DNA from: a virus
Lineage: Duplodnaviria; Heunggongvirae; Uroviricota; Caudoviricetes
Strand: one strand, 5' to 3'
Length of the DNA: 64,000 nt
Virus record (IMG/VR): IMGVR_UViG_3300047444_000299
Coordinates: 1-64,000 of that record
Under the pieces are notes generated by a model that saw only the letters and a program-made list of their open reading frames with translations, had not been told where the DNA came from and ran no database searches. Both the position numbers and the translations under genes were made by a program. Shown in pieces: positions 3,355 through 52,187 of the stretch. Each line of letters starts with the position of its first letter. Positions within the stretch are counted from its first letter, which is position 1.

Positions 3355-3601
3355 TCTCCCGCGTGGGGCGATCTACATCGGTCGCCCTTCAAAATGGGAG
3401 AATCCATATGAAATTGGAATTGATGGAAATCGCACAGAAGTAATTCAAAAGTTCCGTGCGTACCTGTATTCATCTGGGTTGATCAATGACATTCATGAAC
3501 TCTGTGGTAAGGATTTGATTTGCTGGTGCAAACCGAAGAAATGCCACGGCGACATTTTGATTGAATTGGCTAACCCAAGATTGGGTCAATTCTTTGAGTA
3601 G
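3320..3601 (+). CDS. DUF4326-like protein (GRPSKWxNP...CWCxPxxCHGD motif)
   Basis: conserved motif IYIGRPSKWENPY...LICWCKPKKCHGDIL; start uncertain (overlaps upstream ORF). Confidence 0.5.
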   Translation: MCNRVWNQNQSNLPRGAIYIGRPSKWENPYEIGIDGNRTEVIQKFRAYLYSSGLINDIHELCGKDLICWCKPKKCHGDILIELANPRLGQFFE

Positions 3602-3606
3602 GTAAG

Positions 3607-4629
3607 ATGGATCATATAGACCAAGCGTACATCGGGCGGGTTTCCCTCCGATTAGATCAGTTCAAGCAGAAATCACCCGGACGGTACAACTTTAGATGTC
3701 CTATCTGCGGCGACTCGGCTAAGAATAAGTACAAGGCTCGCGCATGGTTCATCGGCCATGATGGTAAGACGTGGTTCAAATGCTTCAACGACGATACATG
3801 CGGGTCCGGTTTTGGATTCTTTCTGAAACGTCATGACCCAGCGCTGTATTCTGAATGGGCTCTTGAGAAATTCAGGGAATATGGTAACGGCAAGCGTCAA
3901 AGCTCGGTCCAAGAAGCCAAGCCGGTACGTCATATGGGTGATCCAGAATTGGTTCACGATTTACCGACGATTGCAAGCCTGCCACATGATCATTTTGCAC
4001 GGGCTTATATCGAAGACCGGAAGTTACCAACGCATTGGCTAGAAAAGTTGTATTTCTGTGAAAGCTGGAAAGAACTGACTAACCAATTTGAGCCGGATAC
4101 ATACAAAACAATCAAATCTGAGGAAGCTCGGATTGTGATTCCCGCTTACAACGAGAAGCGGGAATTGATCTGCTTTCAAGGTCGGAGTCTCGACCCAGAT
4201 GTGGATGAAAAGAAATACCTAACCGTCAAGGTTCAAGATTGCCTCAAAATCTGGGGCATGGACAAGGCGAAAAAGAATGCGCCGGTATTCCTGTTGGAAG
4301 GTGCATTTGATGCAATGTGTTTAAGCAACACTACGGCGATTCTCGGGGGCACTGCGAACCCTAATGATCTACCGGAAGGGTATGATTGGGTGTTCTCGCT
4401 CGATAATGAGCCGCGAAATGTTTCAGTCCTGCGACGATATCAACAATTGATTGATCGCAAGGCAAAGTTTGTGAACTGGCGTGGATGGCCCTACAAATTC
4501 AAAGATGTCAATGAGTGCATCAAGAATGGGATATCCGCCCGTGAGATTCAGCGTTATTTTGAATCAAATATTGTGTCCGGGCTACAAGCTCAACTTGAAT
4601 TTAATCTTTGGAAGAAAGCACCTTTATGA
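3607..4629 (+). CDS. 61: DNA primase (T4 gp61 family; Zn-ribbon + TOPRIM)
   Basis: N-terminal RCPICGDS..KARAW zinc-binding motif typical of gp61; position after helicase. Confidence 0.85.
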   Translation: MDHIDQAYIGRVSLRLDQFKQKSPGRYNFRCPICGDSAKNKYKARAWFIGHDGKTWFKCFNDDTCGSGFGFFLKRHDPALYSEWALEKFREYGNGKRQSSVQEAKPVRHMGDPELVHDLPTIASLPHDHFARAYIEDRKLPTHWLEKLYFCESWKELTNQFEPDTYKTIKSEEARIVIPAYNEKRELICFQGRSLDPDVDEKKYLTVKVQDCLKIWGMDKAKKNAPVFLLEGAFDAMCLSNTTAILGGTANPNDLPEGYDWVFSLDNEPRNVSVLRRYQQLIDRKAKFVNWRGWPYKFKDVNECIKNGISAREIQRYFESNIVSGLQAQLEFNLWKKAPL

Positions 4630-16400: not shown

Positions 16401-16424
16401 GGCCACACATTGAGGGGATCAAGC

Positions 16425-17495
16425 GTGAGCAAAGTTAAAAAGTACGACCTAGCGGTTTTTATCGGGCGAATGGCACCACTGCATAATGCCCATCTGGAAA
16501 ACATTCAATTGGCAGATTCGATTGCTGATCGCGTTGTTGTGATTCTCGGCGGTGCTAACGCTCCGCGTGATGAACGAAATCCATTCAGTAACCAAGACCG
16601 TTCTCGAATGGTCGAAGCTGCAACCAGTGAAGCCGGGATCAAAGGTGTTGGCCTAGCCTTCATCAATGACAACCCATCCGATGATTTGTGGGCCGCTGAA
16701 ATCATGCGTCTGGCAAATCGTTACATTATGGGCATAGAGGCTCCGCGAATCGCAATCGTTGGGCACAAGAAAGATGATAGTTCATTCTATCTCGATTTGT
16801 TCCCAACGTGGGAATTCGTAGAAACCGGCGCAAAGATGCATGGCGACGAAGAAATGGCGGCAACATCAATCCGCAAACTGATGTTTGAGGATAATTTCGA
16901 ACCTGCCATGTACATGATGCCAGCATCTGTATACAACTACGTCAATTACGAATTCATCGGCTCCCCAGAGTATGATGCAATCCGTGAAGAATACATGTTC
17001 CACCAAGCTTACCCAGCAAAACGCCGTGCGTCTTACCCGATCAACGACGTTACCGCTGATGCTGTTGTTCTGTGCAAAAGCCACATCCTGTTGATTCGCC
17101 GTAAAAACATTCCCGGTAAAGGCAAACTGGCCCTACCCGGTGGATTCGTCAACACCAACGAAACGGTTGAAGACGGCGCGATTCGTGAACTGGATGAAGA
17201 AACAAAACTGCATGTACCTGAAAAGGTGTTGCGCAAGTCGATCATTGACGAAAAGCGGTTCGATAATCCGAAACGTTCCCTTCGCGGTCGGCTGATGACC
17301 TTCGCATTTACTTTCAAGATTGATACAAATCATGACGGTAGCTTGCCACGGGTTTACGGTTCCGATGACGCTGATAAGGCGTTCTGGGTTCCAATCTCGG
17401 ATATCTCGGCCCCTGAAAACGCGGCTGACTTTTTCGAAGACCACCACAACATCATCATGACCATGATCGGTCGTGCTGCGAAACAACAAAACTAA
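16425..17495 (+). CDS. natV: bifunctional NMN adenylyltransferase / Nudix hydrolase (NatV-like)
   Basis: N-terminal cytidylyltransferase motif (LAVFIGRMAPLHNAH), C-terminal Nudix box (GGFVNTNETVEDGAIRELDEET); GTG start with GAGGGGA SD. Confidence 0.85.
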   Translation: MSKVKKYDLAVFIGRMAPLHNAHLENIQLADSIADRVVVILGGANAPRDERNPFSNQDRSRMVEAATSEAGIKGVGLAFINDNPSDDLWAAEIMRLANRYIMGIEAPRIAIVGHKKDDSSFYLDLFPTWEFVETGAKMHGDEEMAATSIRKLMFEDNFEPAMYMMPASVYNYVNYEFIGSPEYDAIREEYMFHQAYPAKRRASYPINDVTADAVVLCKSHILLIRRKNIPGKGKLALPGGFVNTNETVEDGAIRELDEETKLHVPEKVLRKSIIDEKRFDNPKRSLRGRLMTFAFTFKIDTNHDGSLPRVYGSDDADKAFWVPISDISAPENAADFFEDHHNIIMTMIGRAAKQQN

Positions 17496-17520
17496 TTCAA
17501 TTTTCGAGGAGTTCGAAAGA

Positions 17521-19014
17521 ATGACAGCTTTCAATACAGAGTTTAACAAAGACAACGCAATCCTGATGGATTTCAACCCGGATAACCTGATCCTGAAATC
17601 CGATTCATACAAAGGTGGTCACTGGGAAATGCTCCCGGCTGGCGCTCAGTACCTGTATTCCTACGGGGAATCGCGTGGATCTGATCAATACGCTGTACGT
17701 GGTGTCAACGAAGGTTACACCTACACAGTTTTCCACGGTCTGCAAGGTATTCTGAAACGTCACTTCTCTAGTCGCCTGACTATGAAAGATGTTGATGAAG
17801 CCGAAGAACTGGTAGAGCTGCATATGGGACCGGGCGTTTTCAACCGTAAAGGTTGGGAACAGATTGTTACCCAGTTCAAAGGTAAACTGCCACTGCGTAT
17901 CCGCTGCCTGAAAGAAGGTACGGTTGTTCCTACCGGCAACGTTCTGTGGACTGTTGAAAACACCCACCCGGACTTTGCATGGTTGGTTTCGTACTTCGAA
18001 CCGCTGTTCCTGCAAGCGTGGTATCCAATTACGGTTGCTTCTGTTTCGTACAGCATCCGTCAAGTGGTAGAACAAGCTTTCCGTCAGTCGGTTGACGAAG
18101 GTGTTGGTAGCCAATTCAAGCTTCACGATTTCGGCTATCGCGGTGTATCCAGTAACGAATCGGCCCGTATTGGTGGTGCTGCTCACTTGGTGGCCGGTTG
18201 GATGGGTAGCGATACCATTCAGGCTGTTATCGAACTGAAAATGCACTACGGCGTGAAGAAAGGCGAAATGCCTGCCTTCTCGGTTCGTGCAACGGAACAC
18301 AGTGTTGTGTGTGCAAACTCCAACGCTGACACCCGCGACGATTCCAACGCTCTGGAAATGGCGATCCAACTGCTGGAGAAACACAAGGGCATCGTAGCCT
18401 GTGTGGGTGATACCTATAGCATTCGCCGTTTCGCGGAATGGTGTGCAACCGATCCGATCAAAACCCGAATCATCAATTCCGGTGGTACGTTTGTACTGCG
18501 CCCAGACTCTGGCAACCCGCTGGAAATTCCGGTCGAAATCATCGGTATCCTGATGGCTGGGTTTGGTTACACCGTGAACAGCAAAGGCTACAAAGTCCTG
18601 CCGAGCTGCATCCGAGTTCTGCAAGGCGACGGTATCAACGAATCCAGCATTCGTGGCATCTACGACAATATGTTCAAAAAGTCGCGTATGTACTCTGCTG
18701 ATAACATCGTTTTCGGTATGGGCGGCGCCCTGCTGCAACACTGCGACCGTGATTGGCTCAAATTTGCCATGAAAGCGGCTGCACTGTGCAAAAACGGCAT
18801 CTGGACTGACCTGTTCAAAGACCCGGACACCGATTCAGTTAAACGGTCGAAGAAAGGTCGAGTGACCACGTTCAAAGATTCGAGTGGGAAATACTTCTCG
18901 GATCGTATCGAACTGCAAGAAACCAATCACACAATCGTTGACCAACTGGTTACGGTGTGGGAAGACGGCGACCACATTATGCAGTGGGCGTTTAGCGAAA
19001 TCCGCATCCCGTAA
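17521..19014 (+). CDS. nadV: nicotinamide phosphoribosyltransferase (NAMPT, NadV-like)
   Basis: NAMPT motifs (LKSDSYKGGHW, FGYRGVSS, GSDT); 498 aa; GAGGAG SD. Confidence 0.9.
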   Translation: MTAFNTEFNKDNAILMDFNPDNLILKSDSYKGGHWEMLPAGAQYLYSYGESRGSDQYAVRGVNEGYTYTVFHGLQGILKRHFSSRLTMKDVDEAEELVELHMGPGVFNRKGWEQIVTQFKGKLPLRIRCLKEGTVVPTGNVLWTVENTHPDFAWLVSYFEPLFLQAWYPITVASVSYSIRQVVEQAFRQSVDEGVGSQFKLHDFGYRGVSSNESARIGGAAHLVAGWMGSDTIQAVIELKMHYGVKKGEMPAFSVRATEHSVVCANSNADTRDDSNALEMAIQLLEKHKGIVACVGDTYSIRRFAEWCATDPIKTRIINSGGTFVLRPDSGNPLEIPVEIIGILMAGFGYTVNSKGYKVLPSCIRVLQGDGINESSIRGIYDNMFKKSRMYSADNIVFGMGGALLQHCDRDWLKFAMKAAALCKNGIWTDLFKDPDTDSVKRSKKGRVTTFKDSSGKYFSDRIELQETNHTIVDQLVTVWEDGDHIMQWAFSEIRIP

Positions 19015-42588: not shown

Positions 42589-42947
42589 TGGAAAGAACAC
42601 AAATCGCCCTAGCGGATAAAATCCGTGAATGGGAATTGAGCGCTGGGGAAAGCTTTACCGACTATTACATGCACGATTCTGTAAAGGATGTATCGTGGGC
42701 GTTTTGGTTGCTGGGGAAAGGTTTCACCGAACGAGCCAATGAATTGATCGATTTGATTCAAGCCGGTGAAACATGCATCGATCAAGAGTTGCTGTATGAG
42801 ATTTATCCACAAGATATCACCGAGGGTGAATCTAGTTGGGATTCGGATATACATTCCGCGAATATCTGTTTGTGGGCTGAATTTCTGGTAGCGTCTGATC
42901 GGTATTGGAAAGACATTACCGAATGGTTCGCAGATCAAAATGATTGA
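42585..42947 (+). CDS. hypothetical acidic protein
   Basis: 120 aa. Confidence 0.45.
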   Translation: MMERTQIALADKIREWELSAGESFTDYYMHDSVKDVSWAFWLLGKGFTERANELIDLIQAGETCIDQELLYEIYPQDITEGESSWDSDIHSANICLWAEFLVASDRYWKDITEWFADQND

Positions 42948-43413
42948 AATCGAACGCAAATTCCTAATTGATGCAACCATGTTGCCGGGATGCTTAACCC
43001 CAACCCGAATCGCCCAAGGCTATTTGAATCAAGATCCTGACAAGACCGTCAGGATTCGGATCGCCGGGGATAAAGGATTCATTACCATCAAAGGTAAATC
43101 CAGCGACAACGGCCTATCCCGGTACGAATGGGAAAAGGAAATTGATCTAAACGACGCCAAAGACTTGTTGGGAATGTGTTCCAATATCATCGACAAGTCC
43201 CGGTATCATATGATTCATCAAGGCAAGCTCTGGGAAATTGATGTATTCCACGGCTTGAACGAAGGATTGGTTGTCGCAGAAATTGAGTTGACTTCCGAAA
43301 CAGAATTGTTTAATTTACCGGAATGGATTACCCAAGAGGTTACGGGCAACCCAGATTACTACAATTCGAATTTAGCTGTATGTCCCTTTAAGTGGTGGTT
43401 TGAGTATGAATAA
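42940..43413 (+). CDS. CYTH-domain protein (triphosphate tunnel metalloenzyme; CyaB/ThTPase-like)
   Basis: N-terminal MIEIERKFLI (ExExK signature), later VAEIEL. Confidence 0.6.
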   Translation: MIEIERKFLIDATMLPGCLTPTRIAQGYLNQDPDKTVRIRIAGDKGFITIKGKSSDNGLSRYEWEKEIDLNDAKDLLGMCSNIIDKSRYHMIHQGKLWEIDVFHGLNEGLVVAEIELTSETELFNLPEWITQEVTGNPDYYNSNLAVCPFKWWFEYE

Positions 43414-43627
43414 ATTTGACATTTCGACCCGGATGGATACCGTCCGGGGATTCTTGGACGACCCCGATACCCATCAAGCCATTCTGGTAATTACCGATAC
43501 CCCGAATGGTCAGTGGGTGCGGGTAGGGGATGTTGAAGCTTATGCCAAGATCAAAGTCGAAAGGGCTACTAAGGTTTTGATGCAACAACATGCGGATGAA
43601 ATCTCCGAATTGTTAGGGTGTAAGTAA
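43400..43627 (+). CDS. hypothetical protein
   Basis: 75 aa. Confidence 0.4.
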   Translation: MSMNKFDISTRMDTVRGFLDDPDTHQAILVITDTPNGQWVRVGDVEAYAKIKVERATKVLMQQHADEISELLGCK

Positions 43628-43827
43628 TGCTAAGAAAATATCCCAAGGGTGCTACCCACTGCGTCTATCCGAATGATATGCAAGACGAGCTGTTTTATCG
43701 CCGGGGATCGGAAACCCTCGAAATCTTTATCATGGGTAGACATGAATGGTTCCCATCTAGGAAACCATTTGGTTATCTCGATGAAATCCATAAGCTGGAA
43801 AATCCAGATCAATTGGTGGGCGAATGA
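43627..43827 (+). CDS. hypothetical protein
   Basis: 66 aa. Confidence 0.35.
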   Translation: MLRKYPKGATHCVYPNDMQDELFYRRGSETLEIFIMGRHEWFPSRKPFGYLDEIHKLENPDQLVGE

Positions 43828-44321
43828 AAGTACAAATCAAAGATATCTATAATCAATTTGATGGTAGAATTTCGGTAGGTCCGCTGGGGATGTTCAAACA
43901 CGCTTTGTTTTGCAAAGTCCCGGATCATGGTCGAACCATCATCACCGATTATGAGTCCCTGAAAAACCTTCGGGATGAATTGGGCAAATACCTGAATGAT
44001 GTCAGGCCGGTGGTGATTCCACAAGAGCTGTGCAATACCATCAATGCCAAAAGCGAACAGCACAGAAAGGAATTGTTCAACCTGAATTTCCTGCTTGAAG
44101 CTATGACCGCTGATCGGGATTCTGAAATCGAACATAAAAACCTTGCTCGGTATCATCGGGATTTGAAGGAACAACAAATCAAGGATCTTGAATCGAAATT
44201 GAATGATGCCAATATGATCAAATCCCAATGGCGTAGTTTGGCCCACAAACATGAGCAAACTATCCTCGATTTGAAATACCGGATTGTCGAGCTGGAAAAT
44301 CCAGTTGTGGTGGGTGACTGA
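43824..44321 (+). CDS. hypothetical coiled-coil protein
   Basis: 165 aa. Confidence 0.45.
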   Translation: MKVQIKDIYNQFDGRISVGPLGMFKHALFCKVPDHGRTIITDYESLKNLRDELGKYLNDVRPVVIPQELCNTINAKSEQHRKELFNLNFLLEAMTADRDSEIEHKNLARYHRDLKEQQIKDLESKLNDANMIKSQWRSLAHKHEQTILDLKYRIVELENPVVVGD

Positions 44322-44509
44322 TGGATCTACCTAATGTGTTTAGAAGCTTTTGGTGTGACCATCGGTATAAGCAGATTCGGACATGGAATGCCTGTTTCTT
44401 CGGAATTCCTCTGTGGAGTTATGCTGATATCCAATGCATCAAATGTGGTCGGACCAAGACCATCACCGGATCGCAATATCTGGACAGTGATGGGAAATTG
44501 ATCAAATGA
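44321..44509 (+). CDS. hypothetical Zn-binding small protein
   Basis: 62 aa. Confidence 0.35.
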   Translation: MDLPNVFRSFWCDHRYKQIRTWNACFFGIPLWSYADIQCIKCGRTKTITGSQYLDSDGKLIK

Positions 44510-44697
44510 GCATGGAAGAATTGTTTGAAAAGGCCCGGTTGGCTATGGGAGCTACCCCAGAAATACGCCTAGCTAAAGCCAGAGCAAGGACTATCGCATT
44601 CAATAAGAAATTGATTGAACAATATCGGTGCTCTGAATGTGGGGTTGATACCTTGAATTACTCCCATACCTTCAAATGTTCCTATAGGGGCTTGTGA
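44506..44697 (+). CDS. hypothetical small protein
   Basis: 63 aa; CSECG. Confidence 0.35.
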   Translation: MSMEELFEKARLAMGATPEIRLAKARARTIAFNKKLIEQYRCSECGVDTLNYSHTFKCSYRGL

Positions 44698-44870
44698 TGT
44701 TTTTACAAATCGAGAAATGTCCGTTTTGTGGTGGAAATGCTGACACCGACAATAATATGCGGTCTGTCTGGGTAGAATGCTATACCTGCGGTGGTAAAGG
44801 CCCATGCTTCAATGGTAGAGACGCTACCTATAATGCGGTCAGGGCTTGGAATCAGCGGGTGACCAAATGA
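44697..44870 (+). CDS. Lar-family restriction alleviation protein-like (57 aa)
   Basis: EKCPFCGG...VWVECYTCGGKGP...AVRAWNQRV matches the Lar signature CPFCGG...C..CGA.GP...AWN.R. Confidence 0.55.
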   Translation: MFLQIEKCPFCGGNADTDNNMRSVWVECYTCGGKGPCFNGRDATYNAVRAWNQRVTK

Positions 44871-45088
44871 CAGCATTCAGAGTTAGGCGGATTGTCGATA
44901 AAGCAGAATTCGGGGTAATTGAATCAAATCATATTGGGTTATTCGATATGGTCGATGAATTCACCGATCCGTATGCTTTCGAATTCACCAGTACCCGATT
45001 CAGTACCCGGACAAATAATTGGGGTCATGGTATCATGTGGCAGCGGTTTGTGTACCCATCCCGGATGTTGGAGCATTTTCATACATGA
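44867..45088 (+). CDS. hypothetical protein
   Basis: ATGA overlap; 73 aa. Confidence 0.35.
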   Translation: MTAFRVRRIVDKAEFGVIESNHIGLFDMVDEFTDPYAFEFTSTRFSTRTNNWGHGIMWQRFVYPSRMLEHFHT

Positions 45089-45429
45089 AAGAATTGATCG
45101 GTCAAGAAGTTCGGCGGATTCATCCCTGTGTAGGTGAATTAGTGGTAGGTGGGGTTTATACCATTACCAATGTCAATCTAAGGATACCGACCAGAATCAT
45201 GGTTTCCGGGGCTGATACGTGGTTTCTATTTGATGCATTCGAGGTAATCAAAAAGGTCTGGATTCTATATGAATGGTATTACGATTTCTGCAATACATGG
45301 GATTGCATCGTCAATATATTCGATTCCGAAGACAAGGCTATCGCCGCCAAGATTGTGGAAGAACAAAAACCCCAGTACAAGAACAAAGAGCAGTATTACA
45401 CCACAATAGATTGTCGGGAAGTATTGTAA
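45085..45429 (+). CDS. hypothetical protein
   Basis: 114 aa. Confidence 0.4.
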   Translation: MKELIGQEVRRIHPCVGELVVGGVYTITNVNLRIPTRIMVSGADTWFLFDAFEVIKKVWILYEWYYDFCNTWDCIVNIFDSEDKAIAAKIVEEQKPQYKNKEQYYTTIDCREVL

Positions 45430-45656
45430 TGTTGCATGACCTTGACGAAATCGAGAGGCTTTATCCGGTATTACCCAAATGCCCATTCTGTCAAGGATAT
45501 TCATCCCCAAATAGCCATATGGGTAAATGCTGGGTAGGATGTGATGTCTGCGGAGCAAGAGGCCCGAAGTTTGTCATGGAATTTAATGATACAAAACCAG
45601 CCTATGTCCGAGCGATCATGGCATGGGCATCCAGAAATGGGAATATTGTTTTATGA
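45429..45656 (+). CDS. Lar-family restriction alleviation protein-like (paralog)
   Basis: LPKCPFCQG...KCWVGCDVCGARGP...AIMAWASRNG. Confidence 0.55.
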   Translation: MLHDLDEIERLYPVLPKCPFCQGYSSPNSHMGKCWVGCDVCGARGPKFVMEFNDTKPAYVRAIMAWASRNGNIVL

Positions 45657-45814
45657 TCAAAATCGAAGACTGGATTCTAGAAGACATCCGAAGACTCCGT
45701 AAAATCCCCCAGCCATCCAGAAGCTCCGACGAGCATCAATACTTAAAGCTGTTGATGGAATACAACAATAAGGTTGAAGAATTCAATATCAGGCTTCGGC
45801 GGTTGAAGAAATGA
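45653..45814 (+). CDS. hypothetical small protein
   Basis: 53 aa. Confidence 0.3.
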   Translation: MIKIEDWILEDIRRLRKIPQPSRSSDEHQYLKLLMEYNNKVEEFNIRLRRLKK

Positions 45815-46374
45815 AGAAAGTGGCTGGTATCGGTATATACGAAAAGGGTAAGTACCCTGCATCAATTACATTGAATGGTGAAACCACCCAAACCAAGGCG
45901 TATAAGGATTGGGTCAATCTATGTAGTTTCTGTGGGTCTGAATCCTACCTGACCCAGAGTCCGTCGTATGTCGGTAAAATCCTTGACCAGCAATGGATCA
46001 AATTCCAAGACTTCGCGGAATGGCATTCAGAGAATCATAGGGAAGGGTGGGTATTATCCACCAGTTGTTCCAATTTGATTGGCCCTGATACCAGCTTTTT
46101 TGTCCCTAGGGAAGTGATGCAATTCATCAATCCCCGAAAGAAACCTATGGTCGTGACCAAAACCCATGTCAAGTTGTCCATGACCCTACAAGGGGTTGAA
46201 TGTACATTCGGGAAATATCGAAACATCCCGGACGCCATGATGGTCTATAGCGGACTGTTTCTGGTAGAGATTACCAGATTGATTAAAGAATATGCCCTAT
46301 CTGAATGGTTGGGCGGCAAGTTGAAAACATTAGCAAACACCACACCGAATATCCGGTATGCGAAAAATATCTAA
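45811..46374 (+). CDS. homing-endonuclease-like protein (paralog of 11933..12550 core, without AP2)
   Basis: GIYEKGKY...YKDW...SYVG...FQDFAEW...IGPDTSFFVPREV shared with the rnlA-pseT intergenic gene. Confidence 0.45.
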   Translation: MKKVAGIGIYEKGKYPASITLNGETTQTKAYKDWVNLCSFCGSESYLTQSPSYVGKILDQQWIKFQDFAEWHSENHREGWVLSTSCSNLIGPDTSFFVPREVMQFINPRKKPMVVTKTHVKLSMTLQGVECTFGKYRNIPDAMMVYSGLFLVEITRLIKEYALSEWLGGKLKTLANTTPNIRYAKNI

Positions 46375-46865: not shown

Positions 46866-46907
46866 AAATGTAAAAGATGTAGGGGAAAAGTTTTAGACCA
46901 GAATTTT

Positions 46908-46987
46908 TTGGTGGGAAATTTTTTTGGAATCGACATTGGGGAAACTTTTTGTCGATTTCTATATGGTGGGAAATTTTTTTGGAATCG
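46908..46987. repeat. 23-bp direct repeat GGTGGGAAATTTTTTTGGAATCG x2
   Basis: two identical copies about 55 bp apart in an ORF-free region. Confidence 0.7.
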
Positions 46988-47058
46988 GGTAGGGTGTCTA
47001 ATAACCTGCCCAAAACCACTAAACTGCCAAGGAATCCATAGGTATGGAACCTTAAATT

Positions 47059-47107
47059 CACCCCCTCCCCACCCCCGGCACCCCCACCACACCACTAGCC
47101 CCTCCCC
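47059..47107. repeat. C-tract cluster (CCCCCTCCCCACCCCCGGCACCCCCACCACACCACTAGCCCCTCCCC); G4-prone on complement
   Basis: six or more C-runs of 4-5 within 49 nt. Confidence 0.7.
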
Positions 47108-47384
47108 ATTCGGAATAGAACTAGTATCCACCACTCACTAGTCTACCATATCAATTCCCAATAGTTCAACCCTATTCTACTACCATTCATCCGTTCCCGA
47201 ATCGATACACAATAGACTCCATTCCTTTGCATCAATTCCTAACCCATTGCATCAAACTCCCTAGTAGTCTGTAAGCCTCTGTAGTCGCGTATAACCCGTG
47301 ATAGAATCAAATCCACCTAATGCCCTAGGCTATACCATATCGAGTCCTATAGATCATTGTAGTTCGATTGAATCATATTAGAAT

Positions 47385-47472
47385 TGATTGCATCAAATGC
47401 TTGACACACTCACTGTATGGTATAGAATGAGCATACACCAACCGAAACCCTGAACCATATAGGAGTTACACA
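47385..47472 (+). promoter_or_regulatory. promoter TTGACA-N16-TAGAAT + conserved leader (CACCAACCGAAAC..AGGAG)
   Basis: near-consensus hexamers, leader shared with downstream cassettes. Confidence 0.6.
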
Positions 47473-47897: not shown

Positions 47898-48030
47898 GAC
47901 ATCACGCAAAAGGAATACAGATTTTAAAGATTTAAGGAACTTGTTAGCAGATGCACGCACTAAACGACTCAATTGCCTAGGTTCGCATTATCAACCGACC
48001 AAACCAATTTGATGTTTAGGAGATTCAAAA

Positions 48031-48507
48031 ATGCGCCAAGTATCTAAAGCTGCTCAGGAACAAACTGTTACCACAAACGTTCTGGAAACCGCTACTACCG
48101 CGTTGTCACTCGCGGAGGATGCATTGATCAAGGCTAAAGAAGCTTTGGCCGCTGCTGGGGGTTCCAAGGGCTCTAAAGGTGGTTCCAAGGGTAAGGCTGT
48201 GACCATTCAACCCCAAACCCCTGTAAACGGTTCTGATGCGTCCAAGGGATCGGCTGGACGTAACCCAAGCCCGGAACAACTCGAAATTCGATCTGCGATT
48301 ATCGAGGCTTTGCAGTCCGGGGAAATCCGATTCTTTACCATTGCCGAAGTTACCGACGCAATGAAAGCCGATAGAATCCAAACCCGAAACGCGGTTAACT
48401 ATCTGGAAGCCCAAGGGGTAGTAACCCGATACGGTGAAAAACTCCCAGAAGGTCGCGGCCAGCGGGAACTGATCTACAAGGCCGGGACCATTCCACCGGT
48501 TGCCTAA
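48031..48507 (+). CDS. putative winged-helix DNA-binding protein with Gly/Ser/Lys-rich linker
   Basis: disordered GGSKGSKGGSKGK segment; C-terminal wHTH-like region. Confidence 0.45.
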   Translation: MRQVSKAAQEQTVTTNVLETATTALSLAEDALIKAKEALAAAGGSKGSKGGSKGKAVTIQPQTPVNGSDASKGSAGRNPSPEQLEIRSAIIEALQSGEIRFFTIAEVTDAMKADRIQTRNAVNYLEAQGVVTRYGEKLPEGRGQRELIYKAGTIPPVA

Positions 48508-48527
48508 AAGATCCTGATAAGCTCTAA

Positions 48528-48551
48528 AGCCCCTTAACCGGGGCTTTTTTG
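48528..48551 (+). terminator. rho-independent terminator
   Basis: AGCCCC-TTAACC-GGGGCT + TTTTTT. Confidence 0.75.
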
Positions 48552-48562
48552 TTTTCAATAGC

Positions 48563-48590
48563 TTGACAATCTGTTTCAATGGGTTACATT
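48563..48590 (+). promoter_or_regulatory. sigma70-like promoter TTGACA-N16-TACATT
   Basis: upstream of the 48640 ORF. Confidence 0.45.
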
Positions 48591-48639
48591 ACCATATAGG
48601 AACATTCTTACATTCTCATACCTTAATCAATGGTGACTT

Positions 48640-48870
48640 ATGAAACTGTTTTATGTAGCAATCTATATGGTTGTGTGTAGTCTCCCTGTAGCGTTCCTGT
48701 CAATCTATATGGCATGGGATAGGACTCCCCCAAACCTGCGCCTAGTACAGTTGGATCAAATCCTTAGAACCGGTTCCCTGACCTATATCGGGTTGATTGT
48801 CGGTAGTCTGTTGGTGTTTCTGGTTTGGCTGATGCTTCCGGGTGACCGGGTTCGCAATGTGTATCAGTGA
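48640..48870 (+). CDS. small membrane protein (2 TM)
   Basis: 76 aa. Confidence 0.45.
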   Translation: MKLFYVAIYMVVCSLPVAFLSIYMAWDRTPPNLRLVQLDQILRTGSLTYIGLIVGSLLVFLVWLMLPGDRVRNVYQ

Positions 48871-49439
48871 ATAATTGCTGAATTTGATGGAATTCTAGTG
48901 AATTATTCTGAATGGTTCCGGGGCTGATTAGTGAATTCTGCTGTAATTTGATGCTATTGCGGGATTTGATGCATTTATTATTGCATCAAAATATTGAACA
49001 CTCACTAGGCAGCCCGAACGAATTCCCCATTTTTCTGTAACGTTTTCGATACACCGTAACGTTTTCAATACACCACATAAATTTTCGATCAATTCAATTC
49101 CCCAACCATTTCCGAACCATTCCTAAGCTGATTCTATTACCTTCCAACCATTCCAAATCTATATCTATTTTCCTGATATTCTCCCCTAAAAATATGCATA
49201 ATACCAATATACATTATGGATTTAATCAATCCCAATATATGGGATGATTTTGATTGATTTAGGCTTGCATTCTGTTCTGAATCTGCTAGGCTATTGTCTA
49301 TTCACTAATGCTTTTCTAACCTTCTAATGGTTATATGACTACTCACTTGATGGCTGGATTGATTGTTATCGGGTTGTTGCTATCCCTAACCGGATCAATG
49401 GTTTGTGGTTATGGTGATATGCCTAGGCATTCCCTTTGC

Positions 49440-50030
49440 TGGATTATTTGGTTTGATATCTCTATAGGTATGTTGGGGGTATCCCTGCTATTGCTTATTG
49501 GTTTGATGATGTTCTAGGGGTTTGATGATGTTCTATATGGTTTGGATGATATCATTGGTTTGTGATGGTTTGATGATCTATGCGGTTCAATGCATGGTTA
49601 AACATTCGTTTTGGCAGGTGGTGGTTTTTGATTCATCCTTATTGATTAGTGGTATTGCAATGTTTGTGGTATTGTGCTATGGGTTTAAATCTCTGCGGCT
49701 TGTTCGGTTGAATAGGGGTTGATATTATGTTTCGGTTGATTAATGCTTTAGAGGTTTGCGGCTGGTTTGGATTGATTTGTGTTTCTGGTTTGATTTTGGA
49801 ATCATTCCGGGTTATCATTTGATTCTACTGATTGAGGGGATTTGATCATGGTTACTATGATTCTAGGCTTCGCGGTATTGCTGGGGTTTTTGTTTCACTA
49901 TTGCCCGGTTGATACTGCTAAGGGTTGATATTCTGCTAGGTTTGGGGCGATTCTGGTGGAATATTAGCATTTAGGGTTTGCATTTAATTTTGAATTGGTT
50001 TATTGTTTGATTTTGATTTAATCACTTGAC
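49440..50030. repeat. iteron-like degenerate GGTTTGAT / GGTTGAT repeat array
   Basis: more than 20 occurrences of GGTTTGAT-like words, including tandem GGTTTGATGATGTTCTA x2. Confidence 0.6.
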
Positions 50031-50042
50031 TTGGCGAATTAC

Positions 50043-50396
50043 ATGACTCTGTATAACTCTATCAAATTGTTGGAAGCGTTCCGGGACTTTTGTTTGTCTA
50101 AGGGCAAATCGGTTATTGTTCACATTGAACCGGGTAAGGGTGCAAACTGGAATGTTTGCGCGGTTGGTCAATTCGGGGAATTCAAAAAGGTAAAGGTCGG
50201 GAATTGGGGCCGGGGCCATACAATGGCCGAAAAGCTGTCTGATGCGTTTGATTGTTTCAATAACCGTCAAACCTATCAGGATTTGTGTAAAGCTGATCGA
50301 GCCGAGGAATTGTTCCCGACATTCGATAAGCTGGCGGTTCGATTGACTGCTGATATCGAAGCATTCCAAGCCCAATGGATGAAAGCTAAAAAGTAA
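50043..50396 (+). CDS. hypothetical protein
   Basis: 117 aa. Confidence 0.45.
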   Translation: MTLYNSIKLLEAFRDFCLSKGKSVIVHIEPGKGANWNVCAVGQFGEFKKVKVGNWGRGHTMAEKLSDAFDCFNNRQTYQDLCKADRAEELFPTFDKLAVRLTADIEAFQAQWMKAKK

Positions 50397-50399
50397 TTT

Positions 50400-50457
50400 G
50401 CATTTGATGCAATCCCCTGTATACTGCTGATACCAACCAAATACAGGGGATTTGAAA
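50400..50457 (+). promoter_or_regulatory. PeSL-like cassette (stem-loop + TTGCAT-N16-TATACT + conserved leader)
   Basis: TTGCATTTGATGCAA palindrome, TATACT, CCAACCAAATACAGGGGA leader. Confidence 0.55.
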
Positions 50458-50841
50458 ATGGCTTTAGAAATATCGGCGGTATCTGATCTGTTTAACTACG
50501 GTATGACTGAAGACGGAACCCCTTTTATAGCTGAACGTTATTTCATAGAAGCCGAAGCGACTAACGGCCAGCGTTGGATTCATACCGCACGGTTTGATTC
50601 TGTTGTCAAGGTTGACGGCGGCGAAGAATGCGACGGAATGGTATTTTTTGAAGACCATCGCCAAGAAGCAAGCGATAAATGCGAAGCATTGGCCGAACGT
50701 ATCCGGTTATTCATGAATGCCGGTGGTAAGCTTGATCCTGTACACTGGATTGAATCTGATCCTAGATATGGTTCGAATGCCTATCAAACCCTAGATTCAC
50801 AAGGATATTTCCGGGATCTGGAAAGAAAAGAAGAATATTAA
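50458..50841 (+). CDS. hypothetical protein
   Basis: 128 aa after cassette. Confidence 0.5.
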   Translation: MALEISAVSDLFNYGMTEDGTPFIAERYFIEAEATNGQRWIHTARFDSVVKVDGGEECDGMVFFEDHRQEASDKCEALAERIRLFMNAGGKLDPVHWIESDPRYGSNAYQTLDSQGYFRDLERKEEY

Positions 50842-50845
50842 GCAT

Positions 50846-50870
50846 AAGCCCCTGATTCTAGGGGCTTTTT
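50846..50870 (+). terminator. rho-independent terminator (family C: AGCCCCTGATTCTAGGGGCTTTTT)
   Basis: identical at 58604, 60314 (1 mismatch) and 61886. Confidence 0.8.
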
Positions 50871-50880
50871 ATTTCTTCAA

Positions 50881-50955
50881 AATAATTGCATCAAATTGCT
50901 TGCATTGGTCTGGGGTTGGGTTATACTGACCATACACCAACCGGAGACATCAACC
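50881..50955 (+). promoter_or_regulatory. PeSL-like cassette (type a: TTGCATCAAATTGCTTGCATT-N15-TATACT + leader)
   Basis: conserved with about 30 other copies. Confidence 0.55.
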
Positions 50956-51189
50956 ATGAAATCCAAAATCAAAGTTACCGTACAAGTTGAAGACTACAAA
51001 GGCAATATGGTTGATGTTGTTGGATGCAAAAGCCTGAAACAAAATATCCACGGTAACTGGGTTGGTTATGTTGGCCGGGAACGTATCGAAAACTTTAGCT
51101 GCGCATTTGATGCCGCCCAATGGTTCCTAGGCGCTGATATGGCTGGCGACGAAATCACCGCTTTCATGACCAAACATATCATGCATTAA
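50956..51189 (+). CDS. hypothetical protein
   Basis: 77 aa. Confidence 0.5.
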   Translation: MKSKIKVTVQVEDYKGNMVDVVGCKSLKQNIHGNWVGYVGRERIENFSCAFDAAQWFLGADMAGDEITAFMTKHIMH

Positions 51190-51267
51190 TTGATGCAAAG
51201 GGGCTTGCATTTGATGTAAACCCCTGCTAGAATGATCTTACACCAACCAAATACAGGATTCGCCAAC
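51190..51267 (+). promoter_or_regulatory. PeSL-like cassette
   Basis: GGGGCTTGCATTTGATGTAAACCCC hairpin, TAGAAT, leader. Confidence 0.55.
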
Positions 51268-51579
51268 ATGAAATTTTACAGCCTCCCAGTGAACGTACAA
51301 GCTCAAGTCAAAGCCGAATGGATGGCAGGTAAGATCATGTCGGCTAATGATCGTATGCGGTACTTTGCCCAAAATGGCTACAAAACAGCGGCGGAATATC
51401 ATCAAGCTGTACTAGCCGAAGCCCCAACCGTTGAAGAACTGAAAATAATCATTATCGAATTGATGAAATCCCGGTTTATCCAACATGGTTTTGAGGACTG
51501 GATGAATCAAATCCCTAACGCGGCCATGATCTGCCGTAACTATAACGAACTGGTCATGATGACTAAGGCCGGGAAATAA
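51268..51579 (+). CDS. hypothetical protein
   Basis: 103 aa. Confidence 0.5.
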   Translation: MKFYSLPVNVQAQVKAEWMAGKIMSANDRMRYFAQNGYKTAAEYHQAVLAEAPTVEELKIIIIELMKSRFIQHGFEDWMNQIPNAAMICRNYNELVMMTKAGK

Positions 51580-51648
51580 TTTCATCAAAGGGGTTGCATC
51601 AAATGCAGCCCCTGCTATACTGATGACACACAAACAGGAGTTACCAAC
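51580..51648 (+). promoter_or_regulatory. PeSL-like cassette
   Basis: hairpin + TATACT + leader with AGGAG. Confidence 0.55.
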
Positions 51649-51861
51649 ATGCAATTGATCAAAGCGGTTGACGCGAAGCTGGGCAACATTATAGCCATGC
51701 CGGTGACTGTCCATACTGGGGTTGTCCAAATGGTTATGGGCAAACTGGTATCCCGGACGTTTGAAGACGTTGACGGCTGGATTACCTTGACCATTGAAAC
51801 CAAGGCCGGTAAGGTCGCGCATGATTATCCCTTTGATGATTTGATTGTAAAGGAGGTTTGA
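51649..51861 (+). CDS. hypothetical protein
   Basis: 70 aa. Confidence 0.5.
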   Translation: MQLIKAVDAKLGNIIAMPVTVHTGVVQMVMGKLVSRTFEDVDGWITLTIETKAGKVAHDYPFDDLIVKEV

Positions 51862-51863
51862 AC

Positions 51864-51980
51864 ATGATCGGCCAAACCCGGATAACAAAGAAAGAGTTTT
51901 ATAAACTCGGTGGTTTGTCAAATCCTAAGTTGTTTCGCAAATCCGCTAATGGTGTTTGGTCCTATTGGAAAGGGGAATAA
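51864..51980 (+). CDS. mini-protein (38 aa)
   Basis: AAGGAGG SD 7 nt upstream. Confidence 0.4.
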   Translation: MIGQTRITKKEFYKLGGLSNPKLFRKSANGVWSYWKGE

Positions 51981-51983
51981 ACC

Positions 51984-52187
51984 ATGTATAACCATAAGGC
52001 TTTGATGGGGTTGGAAGCGCGTATAAACGATGATCTAGAGGTCATTGGGATTATCACCGATTCCTATCATGAGGGGCAAACCCACTGGCTGCAAATCGAT
52101 GGCAGCTATGAACTCGCTGTGCAAGCGGTGGCGGTTGTTCTGGATCTGGGCAAGGGTACAAGCTTTGCACGTCCTAAAGCGTTCTAG
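51984..52187 (+). CDS. hypothetical protein
   Basis: 67 aa. Confidence 0.45.
   Translation: MYNHKALMGLEARINDDLEVIGIITDSYHEGQTHWLQIDGSYELAVQAVAVVLDLGKGTSFARPKAF

What the first reader, a model, noticed from the sequence alone, without database searches (positions are those of the whole stretch)
44697..45656. Two paralogous Lar-family restriction-alleviation-like mini-proteins
The 57-aa ORF at 44697 (below the ORF-track cut-off) and the 75-aa ORF at 45429 both carry the Lar signature CPFCGG...[C]..CG(G/A).GP...A(W/I).AW(N/A).R. Rac-prophage Lar alleviates EcoKI restriction. Two copies may target different type I R-M systems. Neighbouring 60-70-aa Zn-binding ORFs (44321, 44506) may belong to the same anti-restriction cluster.
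Basis: partly seen in the sequence, partly recalled or inferred. Interest (0 to 1): 0.6.

Follow-up and report, generated by a model that had tools for sequence, protein, structure and literature searches.

The report
Two divergent Lar-family zinc-ribbon mini-proteins
A T4-like phage carries two small, real genes of the widespread "Lar" zinc-ribbon family, whose one tested member helps phage DNA escape a bacterial restriction enzyme; this is an ordinary find, and what the two proteins do has not been tested.

Summary
ORFs 44697-44870 (57 aa, Lar-1) and 45429-45656 (75 aa, Lar-2) exist as described, in a chain of small + strand genes joined by ATGA/TGATG overlaps. The window is a T4-like phage related to Pseudomonas phages Astolliot and Milchi.

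- **Family support:** Lar-1 passes the Pfam PF14354 threshold (30.1 vs 28.6 bits) and narrowly misses TIGR03655. Lar-2 is just below Pfam (26.5 bits, E 7.6e-6). Reciprocal profile searches, a shared Cys4 zinc ribbon plus C-terminal helix, and a predicted fold matching viral "Lar" proteins all tie Lar-2 to the family.
- **Real genes:** Both are under purifying selection (dN/dS 0.11-0.36).
- **Not a recent duplication:** Neither is the other's nearest relative. Lar-2 is conserved in six related contigs. Lar-1 is in two.
- **Function is inferred only.** The single tested member, Rac Lar/RalR, is 25% identical to Lar-1 and undetectable pairwise with Lar-2, and its mechanism is disputed.
- **Neighbours:** 44321 and 44506 show synteny but no functional link. 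Homologues of two other neighbours (43627, 45085) are fused to Lar domains elsewhere.

Two Lar genes per phage, and tandem Lar-Lar proteins, are already common. I rate this a new member of a known kind, of modest interest.

The parts
44697..44870 (+). Lar-1: 57-aa canonical Lar-family protein with Cys4 zinc ribbon (C8, C11, C28, C31) and a C-terminal helix carrying A47...W51-N-Q-R
   Evidence: PF14354 30.1 bits (gathering score 28.6), TIGR03655 38.3 (cut-off 39.6), phrog_599 E 3.5e-9. An identical protein is named 'Lar family restriction alleviation protein' by JGI. AF2 pLDDT 89.1, two-strand hairpin plus helix. dN/dS 0.11 against the L003 orthologue. TGATG overlap with the upstream gene.
45429..45656 (+). 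Lar-2: 75-aa divergent Lar-family protein with an extra N-terminal helix, Cys4 (C18, C21, C38, C41) and the motif SPNSHxGxCWVxCxxCGARGPKF. The WNxR motif is reduced to W-A-S-R.
   Evidence: PF14354 26.5 bits (below the gathering score, E 7.6e-6), TIGR03655 14.3, phrog_599 E 2e-6. Alone it matches PF14354 members such as P0019 at 50 bits. AF2 pLDDT 80.2. Foldseek on BFVD returns many 'Lar' proteins at TM 0.55-0.65. Orthologues in L003, L004, L006, L007 and L008 give dN/dS 0.11-0.36. TAATG overlap upstream and ATGA overlap downstream.
45085..45429 (+). 114-aa gene directly upstream of Lar-2. Its N-terminal ~57-aa 'IGxxVRRIHP' domain has a homologue fused in frame to a Lar domain elsewhere.
   Evidence: P0012 (131 aa, contig L035) joins this domain (26/54 identical, E 4e-16) to a Lar domain scoring 34.2 bits on PF14354. 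A stand-alone 59-61-aa form precedes Lar-2 in L004 and L008. No Pfam, PHROG or PDB match for the N-terminal domain.
43627..43827 (+). 66-aa 'PxGATH' small protein, present next to or near Lar in every related locus. A family member is fused to a Lar domain.
   Evidence: Homologues in L003, L004, L006, L007, L008 and L035. In L003 it directly precedes Lar-1. The N-terminus of P0035 (125 aa, L036) matches the family profile (hhalign 86.9%, E 4.2e-6) and its C-terminus is a Lar domain.
44867..45088 (+). 73-aa gene of unknown function. Together with Lar-1 it forms the stretch that is absent between 44506-like and 45085-like genes in relative L008.
   Evidence: In L008 the 44506 homologue (3580-3780) is followed directly by the 45085N homologue (3774-3959) and Lar-2. 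Homologues of 44867 occur in L035 and L036 near Lar fusions. No family match.
44321..44509 (+). Function unknown.
   Evidence: phrog_7696 (unknown function) E 1.4e-5, nothing in Pfam or NCBIfam. Homologues in L007 and L008 upstream of Lar-2. The link is synteny only.
44506..44697 (+). Function unknown.
   Evidence: No family match. Homologues in L006, L008, L035 and L036. The link is synteny only.

Best explanation
Shown: the window comes from a T4-like phage. ORFs 44697-44870 and 45429-45656 are real protein-coding genes in a long chain of translationally coupled small accessory genes. Both encode single-domain Lar-family (PF14354) proteins: a four-cysteine zinc ribbon followed by one C-terminal helix, with a slightly basic net charge. 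Lar-1 is a canonical member that keeps the WNxR helix motif. Lar-2 belongs to a divergent clade that has lost it and gained an N-terminal helix. They are two separate lineages of the family living in one genome, not a recent tandem duplication.

Inferred: each is a small host-takeover or counter-defence factor that acts by binding, not by catalysis. The zinc ribbon and helix would dock onto a host DNA-processing complex. By analogy with Rac Lar, the most likely target is a type I restriction-modification enzyme, pushed from cleavage towards methylation so that incoming unmodified phage DNA survives and progeny become modified. Because the helix surface differs between the two proteins, they probably recognise different targets, and Lar-2's target may not be a type I enzyme at all.

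My confidence in family membership is about 0.9 for Lar-1 and 0.8 for Lar-2. My confidence in the restriction-alleviation mechanism is about 0.3-0.4.
For: - Phage identity: topoisomerase II large subunit is 75% identical to Pseudomonas phages Astolliot and Milchi and about 46% to other T4-like phages. Genes are nearly all on the + strand.
- Gene reality: ATGA/TGATG/TAATG start-stop overlaps. Orthologues give dN/dS 0.11-0.36.
- Family: PF14354 scores 30.1 and 26.5 bits, TIGR03655 38.3, phrog_599 hits both. JGI names the identical Lar-1 protein Lar family.
- Reciprocal test: a profile of the two ORFs plus orthologues finds 1623 cluster representatives at E<=1e-3. All 20 that I rescanned pass the PF14354 gathering score.
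- Conserved residues: CPFC, CxxC, A and W are invariant, including in Rac RalR.
- Structure: confident AF2 models with the same hairpin-plus-helix layout. The Lar-2 model matches viral proteins labelled Lar. Weak tblastn hits of Lar-1 fall mostly on genes annotated 'Lar-like restriction alleviation protein'.
- Function by analogy: Lar is reported to reduce EcoKI restriction and is believed to enhance de novo methylation, mechanism unknown (PMC3177214, citing King & Murray 1995).
Against: - No member of this phage clade has been tested.
- The only characterised member is very distant: Lar-1 25% identity at pairwise E 8e-4, Lar-2 undetectable.
- Lar-2 fails both curated cut-offs, and Lar-1 fails TIGR03655 by 1.3 bits.
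- RalR has been reinterpreted as a DNase toxin (PMC4041452).
- A Lar homologue in phage Bas63 was conditionally important in hosts that lack intact type I systems but carry type IV systems (bioRxiv 10.1101/2024.10.10.617714).
- The host and its restriction systems are unknown.
- The cultured relatives Astolliot and Milchi lack both genes, so the genes are dispensable accessories.
- The family's domain also occurs fused to DnaE1 (PMC3919608), so it may be a general-purpose module.
Confidence: 0.4

Rival explanations
1. They are counter-defence or host-takeover factors aimed at something other than type I R-M, such as type IV restriction or another host complex. The Lar zinc ribbon would serve as an adaptor that works together with neighbouring small domains (PxGATH, IGxxVRRIHP).
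For: Bas63 gene 32, a Lar homologue, was less essential only in the strain lacking type IV systems, while type I was not intact in two of the strains where it mattered (bioRxiv 10.1101/2024.10.10.617714). The Lar-2 clade has lost the WNxR motif kept by about two thirds of family domains. Homologues of two neighbouring genes are fused to Lar domains. The same small genes travel together in shuffled order in eight related loci.
Against: The Bas63 inference is indirect. Each fusion is seen in one or two metagenomic contigs only. Synteny among related phages may reflect common descent alone. The partner domains match nothing known.
Confidence: 0.25
2. They are small nucleic-acid-binding zinc-ribbon proteins serving the phage's own DNA or RNA transactions (replication, recombination or transcription control), not defence evasion.
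Confidence: 0.15
3. They are RalR-like non-specific DNases that degrade host DNA or act as toxins.
For: Purified RalR was reported to cleave methylated and unmethylated DNA with Mg2+/Ca2+ and to be toxic (PMC4041452). T4-like phages do degrade host DNA (general knowledge).
Against: RalR positions where mutations reduced toxicity (14, 37, 39, 49, 51, 52) are mostly not conserved. Lar-1 keeps only N51 and naturally has Q at the position of the inactivating K52Q change. Lar-2 keeps none. That position is variable across the family. There is no nuclease-like fold or acidic metal-binding cluster. Rfam finds no RNA family in the window at all.
Confidence: 0.08
4. They are chance ORFs with a fortuitous CxxC...CxxC pattern, not genes.
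For: Both are short (57 and 75 aa). The window has many CxxC...CxxC ORFs.
Against: Profile E-values of 1e-6 to 1e-9. Orthologues in up to six contigs with dN/dS far below 1. Start-stop coupling with neighbours. Confident structure predictions.
Confidence: 0.01

Closest known systems
Lar / RalR of the E. coli Rac prophage (b1348, 64 aa), the founding member of PF14354 / TIGR03655
   Same: Same domain: CPFC...CxxC zinc ribbon followed by a helix with conserved A and W. Lar-1 also keeps the W-N-x-R motif. All are small, stand-alone, mildly basic proteins encoded by a phage.
   Different: Only 25% identity to Lar-1, and no pairwise signal to Lar-2; the link runs through intermediates such as P0019 and P0020. 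RalR sits beside recET in a temperate prophage with an antisense sRNA, RalA. Here the genes sit in an accessory-gene chain of a virulent T4-like phage. Residues linked to RalR toxicity are not conserved.
Ral of phage lambda (functional analogue of Lar; no sequence relationship, from my own knowledge and PMC3177214)
   Same: The proposed working model is the same: a small early phage protein that lowers type IA restriction and is believed to enhance de novo methylation.
   Different: Unrelated sequence and fold. Not a family member. No evidence here for any effect on methylation.
Lar-like genes annotated in cultured phages (phi80, Pectobacterium phiTE/CB7, Salmonella KFSST1 with two copies, Bas63 gene 32)
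   Same: Same PHROG/Pfam family. Weak tblastn hits of Lar-1 land on these genes. KFSST1 carries two annotated Lar-like genes, so two copies per genome is not new.
   Different: Identities of 30-44% with non-significant database-wide E-values. None is from the Astolliot/Milchi-like T4-type group, whose cultured members lack the gene. Apart from the Bas63 gene-essentiality screen, I found no functional test of these homologues.
Tandem Lar-Lar proteins from metagenomes (e.g. P0013, P0015, P0019, P0025)
   Same: Two Lar domains acting in one genome or one product. 24 of the top 150 profile hits have two or more Lar stretches.
   Different: In those proteins the two domains are in one chain, and in the sequences I read both keep WNxR (P0013, P0025). 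Here the two domains are separate genes 560 bp apart and one has lost the motif.
Elf1 zinc-ribbon fold (PDB 9er2_O, 8rap_M, 6ir9_M)
   Different: 14% identity and rmsd 3.0 A. This is a fold-level resemblance only, with no evidence of common function.

Membership tests
Lar_restr_allev (Pfam PF14354) | Whole-protein score at or above the Pfam gathering score (28.6 bits): Lar-1 | tested here: met
   30.1 bits, E 5.6e-7, residues 4-54 on profile 2-57/58.
Lar_restr_allev (Pfam PF14354) | Whole-protein score at or above the Pfam gathering score (28.6 bits): Lar-2 | tested here: not met
   26.5 bits, E 7.6e-6, residues 15-70 on profile 3-58/58. It is 2.1 bits short. One orthologue (P0005) carries a precomputed PF14354 hit.
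Lar family, NCBIfam TIGR03655 (anti_R_Lar, subfamily model) | Score at or above the curated cut-off (39.6 bits) | tested here: not met
   Lar-1 38.3 bits (E 1.2e-9, 1.3 bits short). Lar-2 14.3 bits (E 0.037).
Lar family (any model) | Reciprocal homology: a profile of the candidates retrieves accepted family members | tested here: met
   Profile A2 finds 1623 representatives at E<=1e-3. 20 of 20 rescanned hits pass the PF14354 gathering score. Lar-2 alone hits P0019 (a two-domain PF14354 protein) at 50 bits.
Lar family (any model) | Four-cysteine zinc ribbon, CPxC...CxxC | tested here: met
   C8/C11/C28/C31 (Lar-1) and C18/C21/C38/C41 (Lar-2) are invariant in all homologues and in RalR. They flank the beta-hairpin in the AF2 models. 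Zinc binding itself was not tested.
Lar family (any model) | C-terminal helix with A-x3-W-N-x-R | tested here: inconclusive
   Lar-1 has A47...W51-N-Q-R. The Lar-2 clade keeps A and W only (WASR, WSIG, WEIG, WDVG, WMVR). A rough regex count finds about 113 of 168 family domains with WNxR, so the motif is common but not universal.
Lar family (functional definition) | Alleviates restriction and enhances modification by a type I (EcoKI-family) enzyme in vivo | not testable with these tools
   Known only for Rac Lar (King & Murray 1995, as cited in PMC3177214 and PMC4041452). Needs plating assays.
RalR/RalA type I toxin-antitoxin (DNase toxin) | Residues whose mutation reduces RalR toxicity (14, 37, 39, 49, 51, 52) are conserved | tested here: not met
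   In alignment A1, C14 aligns to G in Lar-1, R49 to A in both, N51 is kept in Lar-1 only, K52 aligns to Q (Lar-1) and S (Lar-2), and the 37/39 region is not alignable.
RalR/RalA type I toxin-antitoxin (DNase toxin) | A partner antisense or trans sRNA antitoxin (RalA) | tested here: inconclusive
   The Rfam scan of the whole window at gathering thresholds returned no family. I did not verify that Rfam holds a RalA model, and a divergent sRNA would be missed.

The most novel reading that the evidence does not exclude
In this group of T4-like phages (Astolliot/Milchi relatives known mostly from metagenomes), the divergent Lar-2 clade is not a stand-alone type I anti-restriction protein. It would be the zinc-ribbon adaptor of a multi-part small-protein module. 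Its partners would be the 'PxGATH' (43627) and 'IGxxVRRIHP' (45085 N-terminal) domains, which are sometimes fused to Lar in one chain (P0035, P0012). Loss of the WNxR motif would mark a new target. Lar-1 would be a separately acquired canonical Lar with the classical role.
Probability: 0.15. Interest if true: 0.5.

Novelty: new member of a known kind. Interest (0 to 1): 0.3.

Why it matters
Lar-like genes are annotated in hundreds of phage genomes on the strength of one 1995 experiment, and the family's mechanism is still unknown. This locus adds little that is new in kind. JGI already labels Lar-1 as Lar family, and two copies per phage are already seen.

It does offer a compact test case: a canonical and a motif-less Lar side by side in a virulent T4-like phage, plus two unknown small domains that are fused to Lar elsewhere. 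Expressing the two proteins, alone and with those neighbours, against panels of restriction systems could show whether the family name predicts function. It could also show what the WNxR helix does.

Tried and rejected
- Megablast of 40-50 kb of the window against 50,697 phage records: no match.
- tblastn of either protein against phages at E<=1e-3: no match. At E<=10, Lar-1 gave only weak hits, mostly on annotated Lar genes, and Lar-2 gave almost nothing.
- Syntenic regions of Astolliot and Milchi: no Lar-like ORF.
- Word-indexed homologue searches returned only 2-10 proteins because the queries are short. The exhaustive profile search was needed.
- Look-up of the exact Lar-1 protein's contig: not on record.
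- PDB sequence search with the Lar profile: only noise, best E 0.067 on an RRM.
- Partner domains (43627 family, 45085 N-terminal family) against Pfam, PHROGs and PDB: nothing.
- Promoter and terminator scan of 41-49 kb: counts not above the shuffled expectation, so I make no claim about the transcription unit or timing. 'Early' is inferred from position among small accessory genes only.
- Rfam: no family in the window. tRNA scan: none.
- Considered and rejected: recent tandem duplication, DNase toxin (residues not conserved) and chance ORFs (dN/dS).
- Longer Lar fusion proteins were scanned for informative partner domains: none is known to Pfam.
Full report
**1. The observation**

Lar-1 runs from ATG 44697 to TGA 44870 (57 aa). 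Lar-2 runs from ATG 45429 to TGA 45656 (75 aa). Both lie on the + strand in an uninterrupted chain of small genes whose stops and starts overlap:
- TGATG at 44321 and 44697
- ATGA at 44506, 44867, 45085, 45653 and 45811
- TAATG at 45429

The quoted signature is present. One small correction: Lar-2 reads CPFCQG rather than CPFCGG. The two proteins align over 59 residues at 34% identity.

**2. What the window is**

The window is almost entirely + strand coding, at 43-48% G+C, with no tRNAs. By my own reading of the translations, which no tool confirmed, its first 20 kb encodes a T4-type replication and recombination set:
- RecA/UvsX-like protein, DnaB-like helicase, primase and both topoisomerase II subunits
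- RNA ligases and a polynucleotide kinase-phosphatase-like protein
- An NMN adenylyltransferase/Nudix plus nicotinamide phosphoribosyltransferase pair

The topoisomerase large subunit is 75% identical to that of Pseudomonas phages Astolliot (genus Otagovirus) and Milchi, and about 46% identical to other T4-like phages. There is no nucleotide-level match to any of 50,697 phage records. The window is therefore an uncultured T4-like phage related to those two.

**3. Family membership**

| Model | Lar-1 | Lar-2 | Cut-off |
|---|---|---|---|
| Pfam PF14354 (Lar_restr_allev) | 30.1 bits, E 5.6e-7 | 26.5 bits, E 7.6e-6 | 28.6 bits |
| NCBIfam TIGR03655 | 38.3 bits | 14.3 bits | 39.6 bits |
| PHROG 599 (Lar-like restriction alleviation protein) | E 3.5e-9 | E 2e-6 | none |

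An identical Lar-1 protein is already in the JGI collection under the name "Lar family restriction alleviation protein".

To test Lar-2 more strictly I built a profile from the two ORFs and their five closest homologues (A2) and searched 1.84 billion cluster representatives:
- 1623 representatives matched at E<=1e-3.
- All 20 hits that I rescanned pass the PF14354 gathering score.
- Lar-2 on its own scores about 50 bits against several of them, for example the two-domain protein P0019.

The four cysteines, an alanine and a tryptophan are invariant across both ORFs, all their homologues and Rac RalR.

AlphaFold2 gives confident models, with pLDDT 89.1 and 80.2. Both show the same beta-hairpin zinc ribbon and C-terminal helix, and Lar-2 has an additional N-terminal helix. 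The Lar-2 model matches many viral proteins labelled Lar at TM 0.55-0.65. I conclude that both are Lar-family proteins. Lar-1 is canonical and Lar-2 is a divergent clade.

**4. Are they real genes, and are they paralogues?**

Related contigs show that both are conserved genes:

| Locus | Source | Lar-1 type | Lar-2 type |
|---|---|---|---|
| window | – | yes | yes |
| L003 | 69.7-kb contig | yes, 74% identical | yes, 69% identical |
| L004 | 14.8-kb contig | no | yes, 97% identical |
| L006 | 75.9-kb IMG/VR contig | no | yes |
| L007 | 182.9-kb IMG/VR contig | no | yes |
| L008 | 167.8-kb IMG/VR contig | no | yes |

Nei-Gojobori dN/dS against these orthologues is 0.11 for Lar-1 and 0.11-0.36 for Lar-2. 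That indicates purifying selection on the protein, although dS is near saturation in several pairs.

Lar-2 is thus the stable member of this region, and Lar-1 is variable. In L008 the homologue of ORF 44506 is followed directly by the homologue of ORF 45085 and then by Lar-2. Lar-1 and ORF 44867 therefore form a stretch that is present in the window and absent in L008.

Neither Lar is the other's closest relative. Among 161 family sequences, Lar-2 ranks 54th for Lar-1 and Lar-1 ranks 23rd for Lar-2. They are family paralogues in the broad sense but not a recent local duplication. The cultured relatives Astolliot and Milchi have neither gene, in the syntenic region or elsewhere.

**5. The neighbours**

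Neither matches any anti-restriction family. ORF 44321 matches only phrog_7696, which has unknown function, and ORF 44506 matches nothing. Both do recur near Lar-2 in related contigs, but among related phages that may be no more than shared ancestry.

Two other neighbours have a stronger link:
- **ORF 45085.** This is the gene immediately upstream of Lar-2. Its N-terminal about 57 residues are 48% identical (E 4e-16) to the N-terminal half of P0012. P0012 is a 131-aa protein on contig L035 whose C-terminal half is a Lar domain scoring 34.2 bits on PF14354.
- **ORF 43627.** This 66-aa gene is present in every related locus and lies directly upstream of Lar-1 in L003. It belongs to a family whose profile matches the N-terminus of P0035 (hhalign probability 86.9%, E 4.2e-6). 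P0035 is a 125-aa protein on contig L036 that also ends in a Lar domain.

Such fusions suggest that these small domains work with Lar. Each fusion rests on only one or two metagenomic contigs, and the partner domains match nothing in Pfam, PHROGs or the PDB.

The same gene set travels together in different orders in eight loci. It comprises the CYTH protein at 42940-43413, ORFs 43627, 44506 and 44867, the N-terminal domain of 45085, and Lar.

**6. Mechanism**

What is known about the family is thin:
- Rac Lar lowers EcoKI restriction and is believed, like lambda Ral, to enhance de novo methylation. The mechanism is unknown (PMC3177214; PMC6158711).
- The same protein, renamed RalR, was later reported to be a Mg2+/Ca2+-dependent non-specific DNase toxin with an sRNA antitoxin. 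Mutations at positions 14, 37, 39, 49, 51 and 52 reduced toxicity, and K52Q abolished cleavage (PMC4041452).
- In a knockout screen of phage Bas63, a Lar homologue mattered in hosts without intact type I systems but with type IV systems.

What the sequences here show:
- Lar-1 is 25% identical to RalR, and Lar-2 shows no pairwise similarity to it.
- At the RalR toxicity positions, Lar-1 keeps only N51 and naturally carries Q where K52Q inactivates RalR. Lar-2 keeps none.
- The residue after W-N is variable across the family (R, K, T, E, Q and others). The WNxR motif itself is present in about two thirds of domains and is lost in the whole Lar-2 clade.
- Both proteins are mildly basic rather than acidic DNA mimics.

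My best reading is that these are binding modules, not enzymes, acting as accessory host-takeover or counter-defence factors. By family analogy the most likely target is a type I R-M complex. The two proteins probably have different targets, and Lar-2's may lie outside type I. I put about 0.9 and 0.8 on family membership, and 0.3-0.4 on the restriction-alleviation mechanism.

The rivals, in decreasing likelihood:
1. Another defence target, possibly together with the fused-domain neighbours.
2. A nucleic-acid-binding role in phage DNA or RNA transactions. A Lar-like domain replaces the C-terminal domain of one DnaE1 (PMC3919608).
3. A RalR-like DNase.
4. Chance ORFs, which conservation excludes.

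**7. Novelty**

Lar-like genes are routinely annotated in cultured phages, and the weak tblastn hits of Lar-1 fall mostly on such genes. Salmonella phage KFSST1 has two annotated copies. In addition, 24 of the top 150 profile hits are proteins with two or more Lar domains in one chain. Two copies in one genome is therefore not unusual.

What is modestly new:
- The Lar-2 clade lacks the motif, is mostly unannotated, and is so far confined to this T4-like group.
- Two unknown neighbour domains are linked to Lar by fusion.

My verdict is a new member of a known kind. The interest is low to moderate, and the functional claim still rests entirely on experiment.

Noticed in passing
window 45085-45429; locus L035 677-1072 (P0012): The N-terminal 'IGxxVRRIHP' domain of the gene upstream of Lar-2 is fused in frame to a Lar domain in a metagenomic relative (26/54 identical, E 4e-16). 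In L004 and L008 the same domain is a stand-alone 59-61-aa gene overlapping the start of Lar-2. The window's version has an extra C-terminal half that weakly matches phrog_3002 and phrog_14326 (E 1.5e-4).
   Followed up: partly
window 43627-43827; locus L036 3611-3988 (P0035); L003 2806-3066 and L035 457-720: The 'PxGATH' small-protein family is present in every related locus. One member is fused to a Lar domain (hhalign 86.9%). Two other members end in a CxxC-x-GC-x2-CGSKGHG knuckle that resembles the second knuckle of Lar (CxxCGAKGP).
   Followed up: partly
window 46866-47472: An unusually long (about 600 nt) non-coding gap in an otherwise tightly packed genome. It has an exact 23-nt direct repeat (ggtgggaaatttttttggaatcg at 46910-46932 and 46965-46987), a C-rich tract (about 47063-47110) and a near-consensus sigma-70-like promoter at 47401-47428 (11/12). 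No Rfam family matches.
   Followed up: no
window 45811-46374: A 187-aa HNH-endonuclease-like gene (phrog_953 E 1e-15, 32% identical to a Milchi HNH endonuclease) sits two genes downstream of Lar-2. It is also present in L004. It may be a homing endonuclease contributing to the mosaic gene order here.
   Followed up: no
window 16410-19014: By eye, not tested with a tool, two adjacent genes look like an NMN adenylyltransferase/Nudix (NadR-like) protein and a nicotinamide phosphoribosyltransferase. That would be an NAD+ salvage pair like those known in some large T4-like phages.
   Followed up: no
window, whole (e.g. 27204, 31426, 32671, 36154, 37315, 39743): At least eight further + strand ORFs carry CxxC...CxxC zinc-ribbon-like patterns unrelated to Lar. 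Small zinc-binding proteins are abundant in this phage's accessory region.
   Followed up: no
window 48001-52000: AT skew changes sign (-0.063 against +0.03 to +0.11 elsewhere). The only sizeable - strand ORFs lie here (48106-48579, 51412-51921), which suggests a short block transcribed in the opposite direction.
   Followed up: no
window 42940-43413; L003 3069-3803: A CYTH-domain protein is the conserved anchor of this accessory region in all relatives, including Astolliot and Milchi. In L003 it is fused to a 93-aa module that is a separate gene in L004.
   Followed up: no
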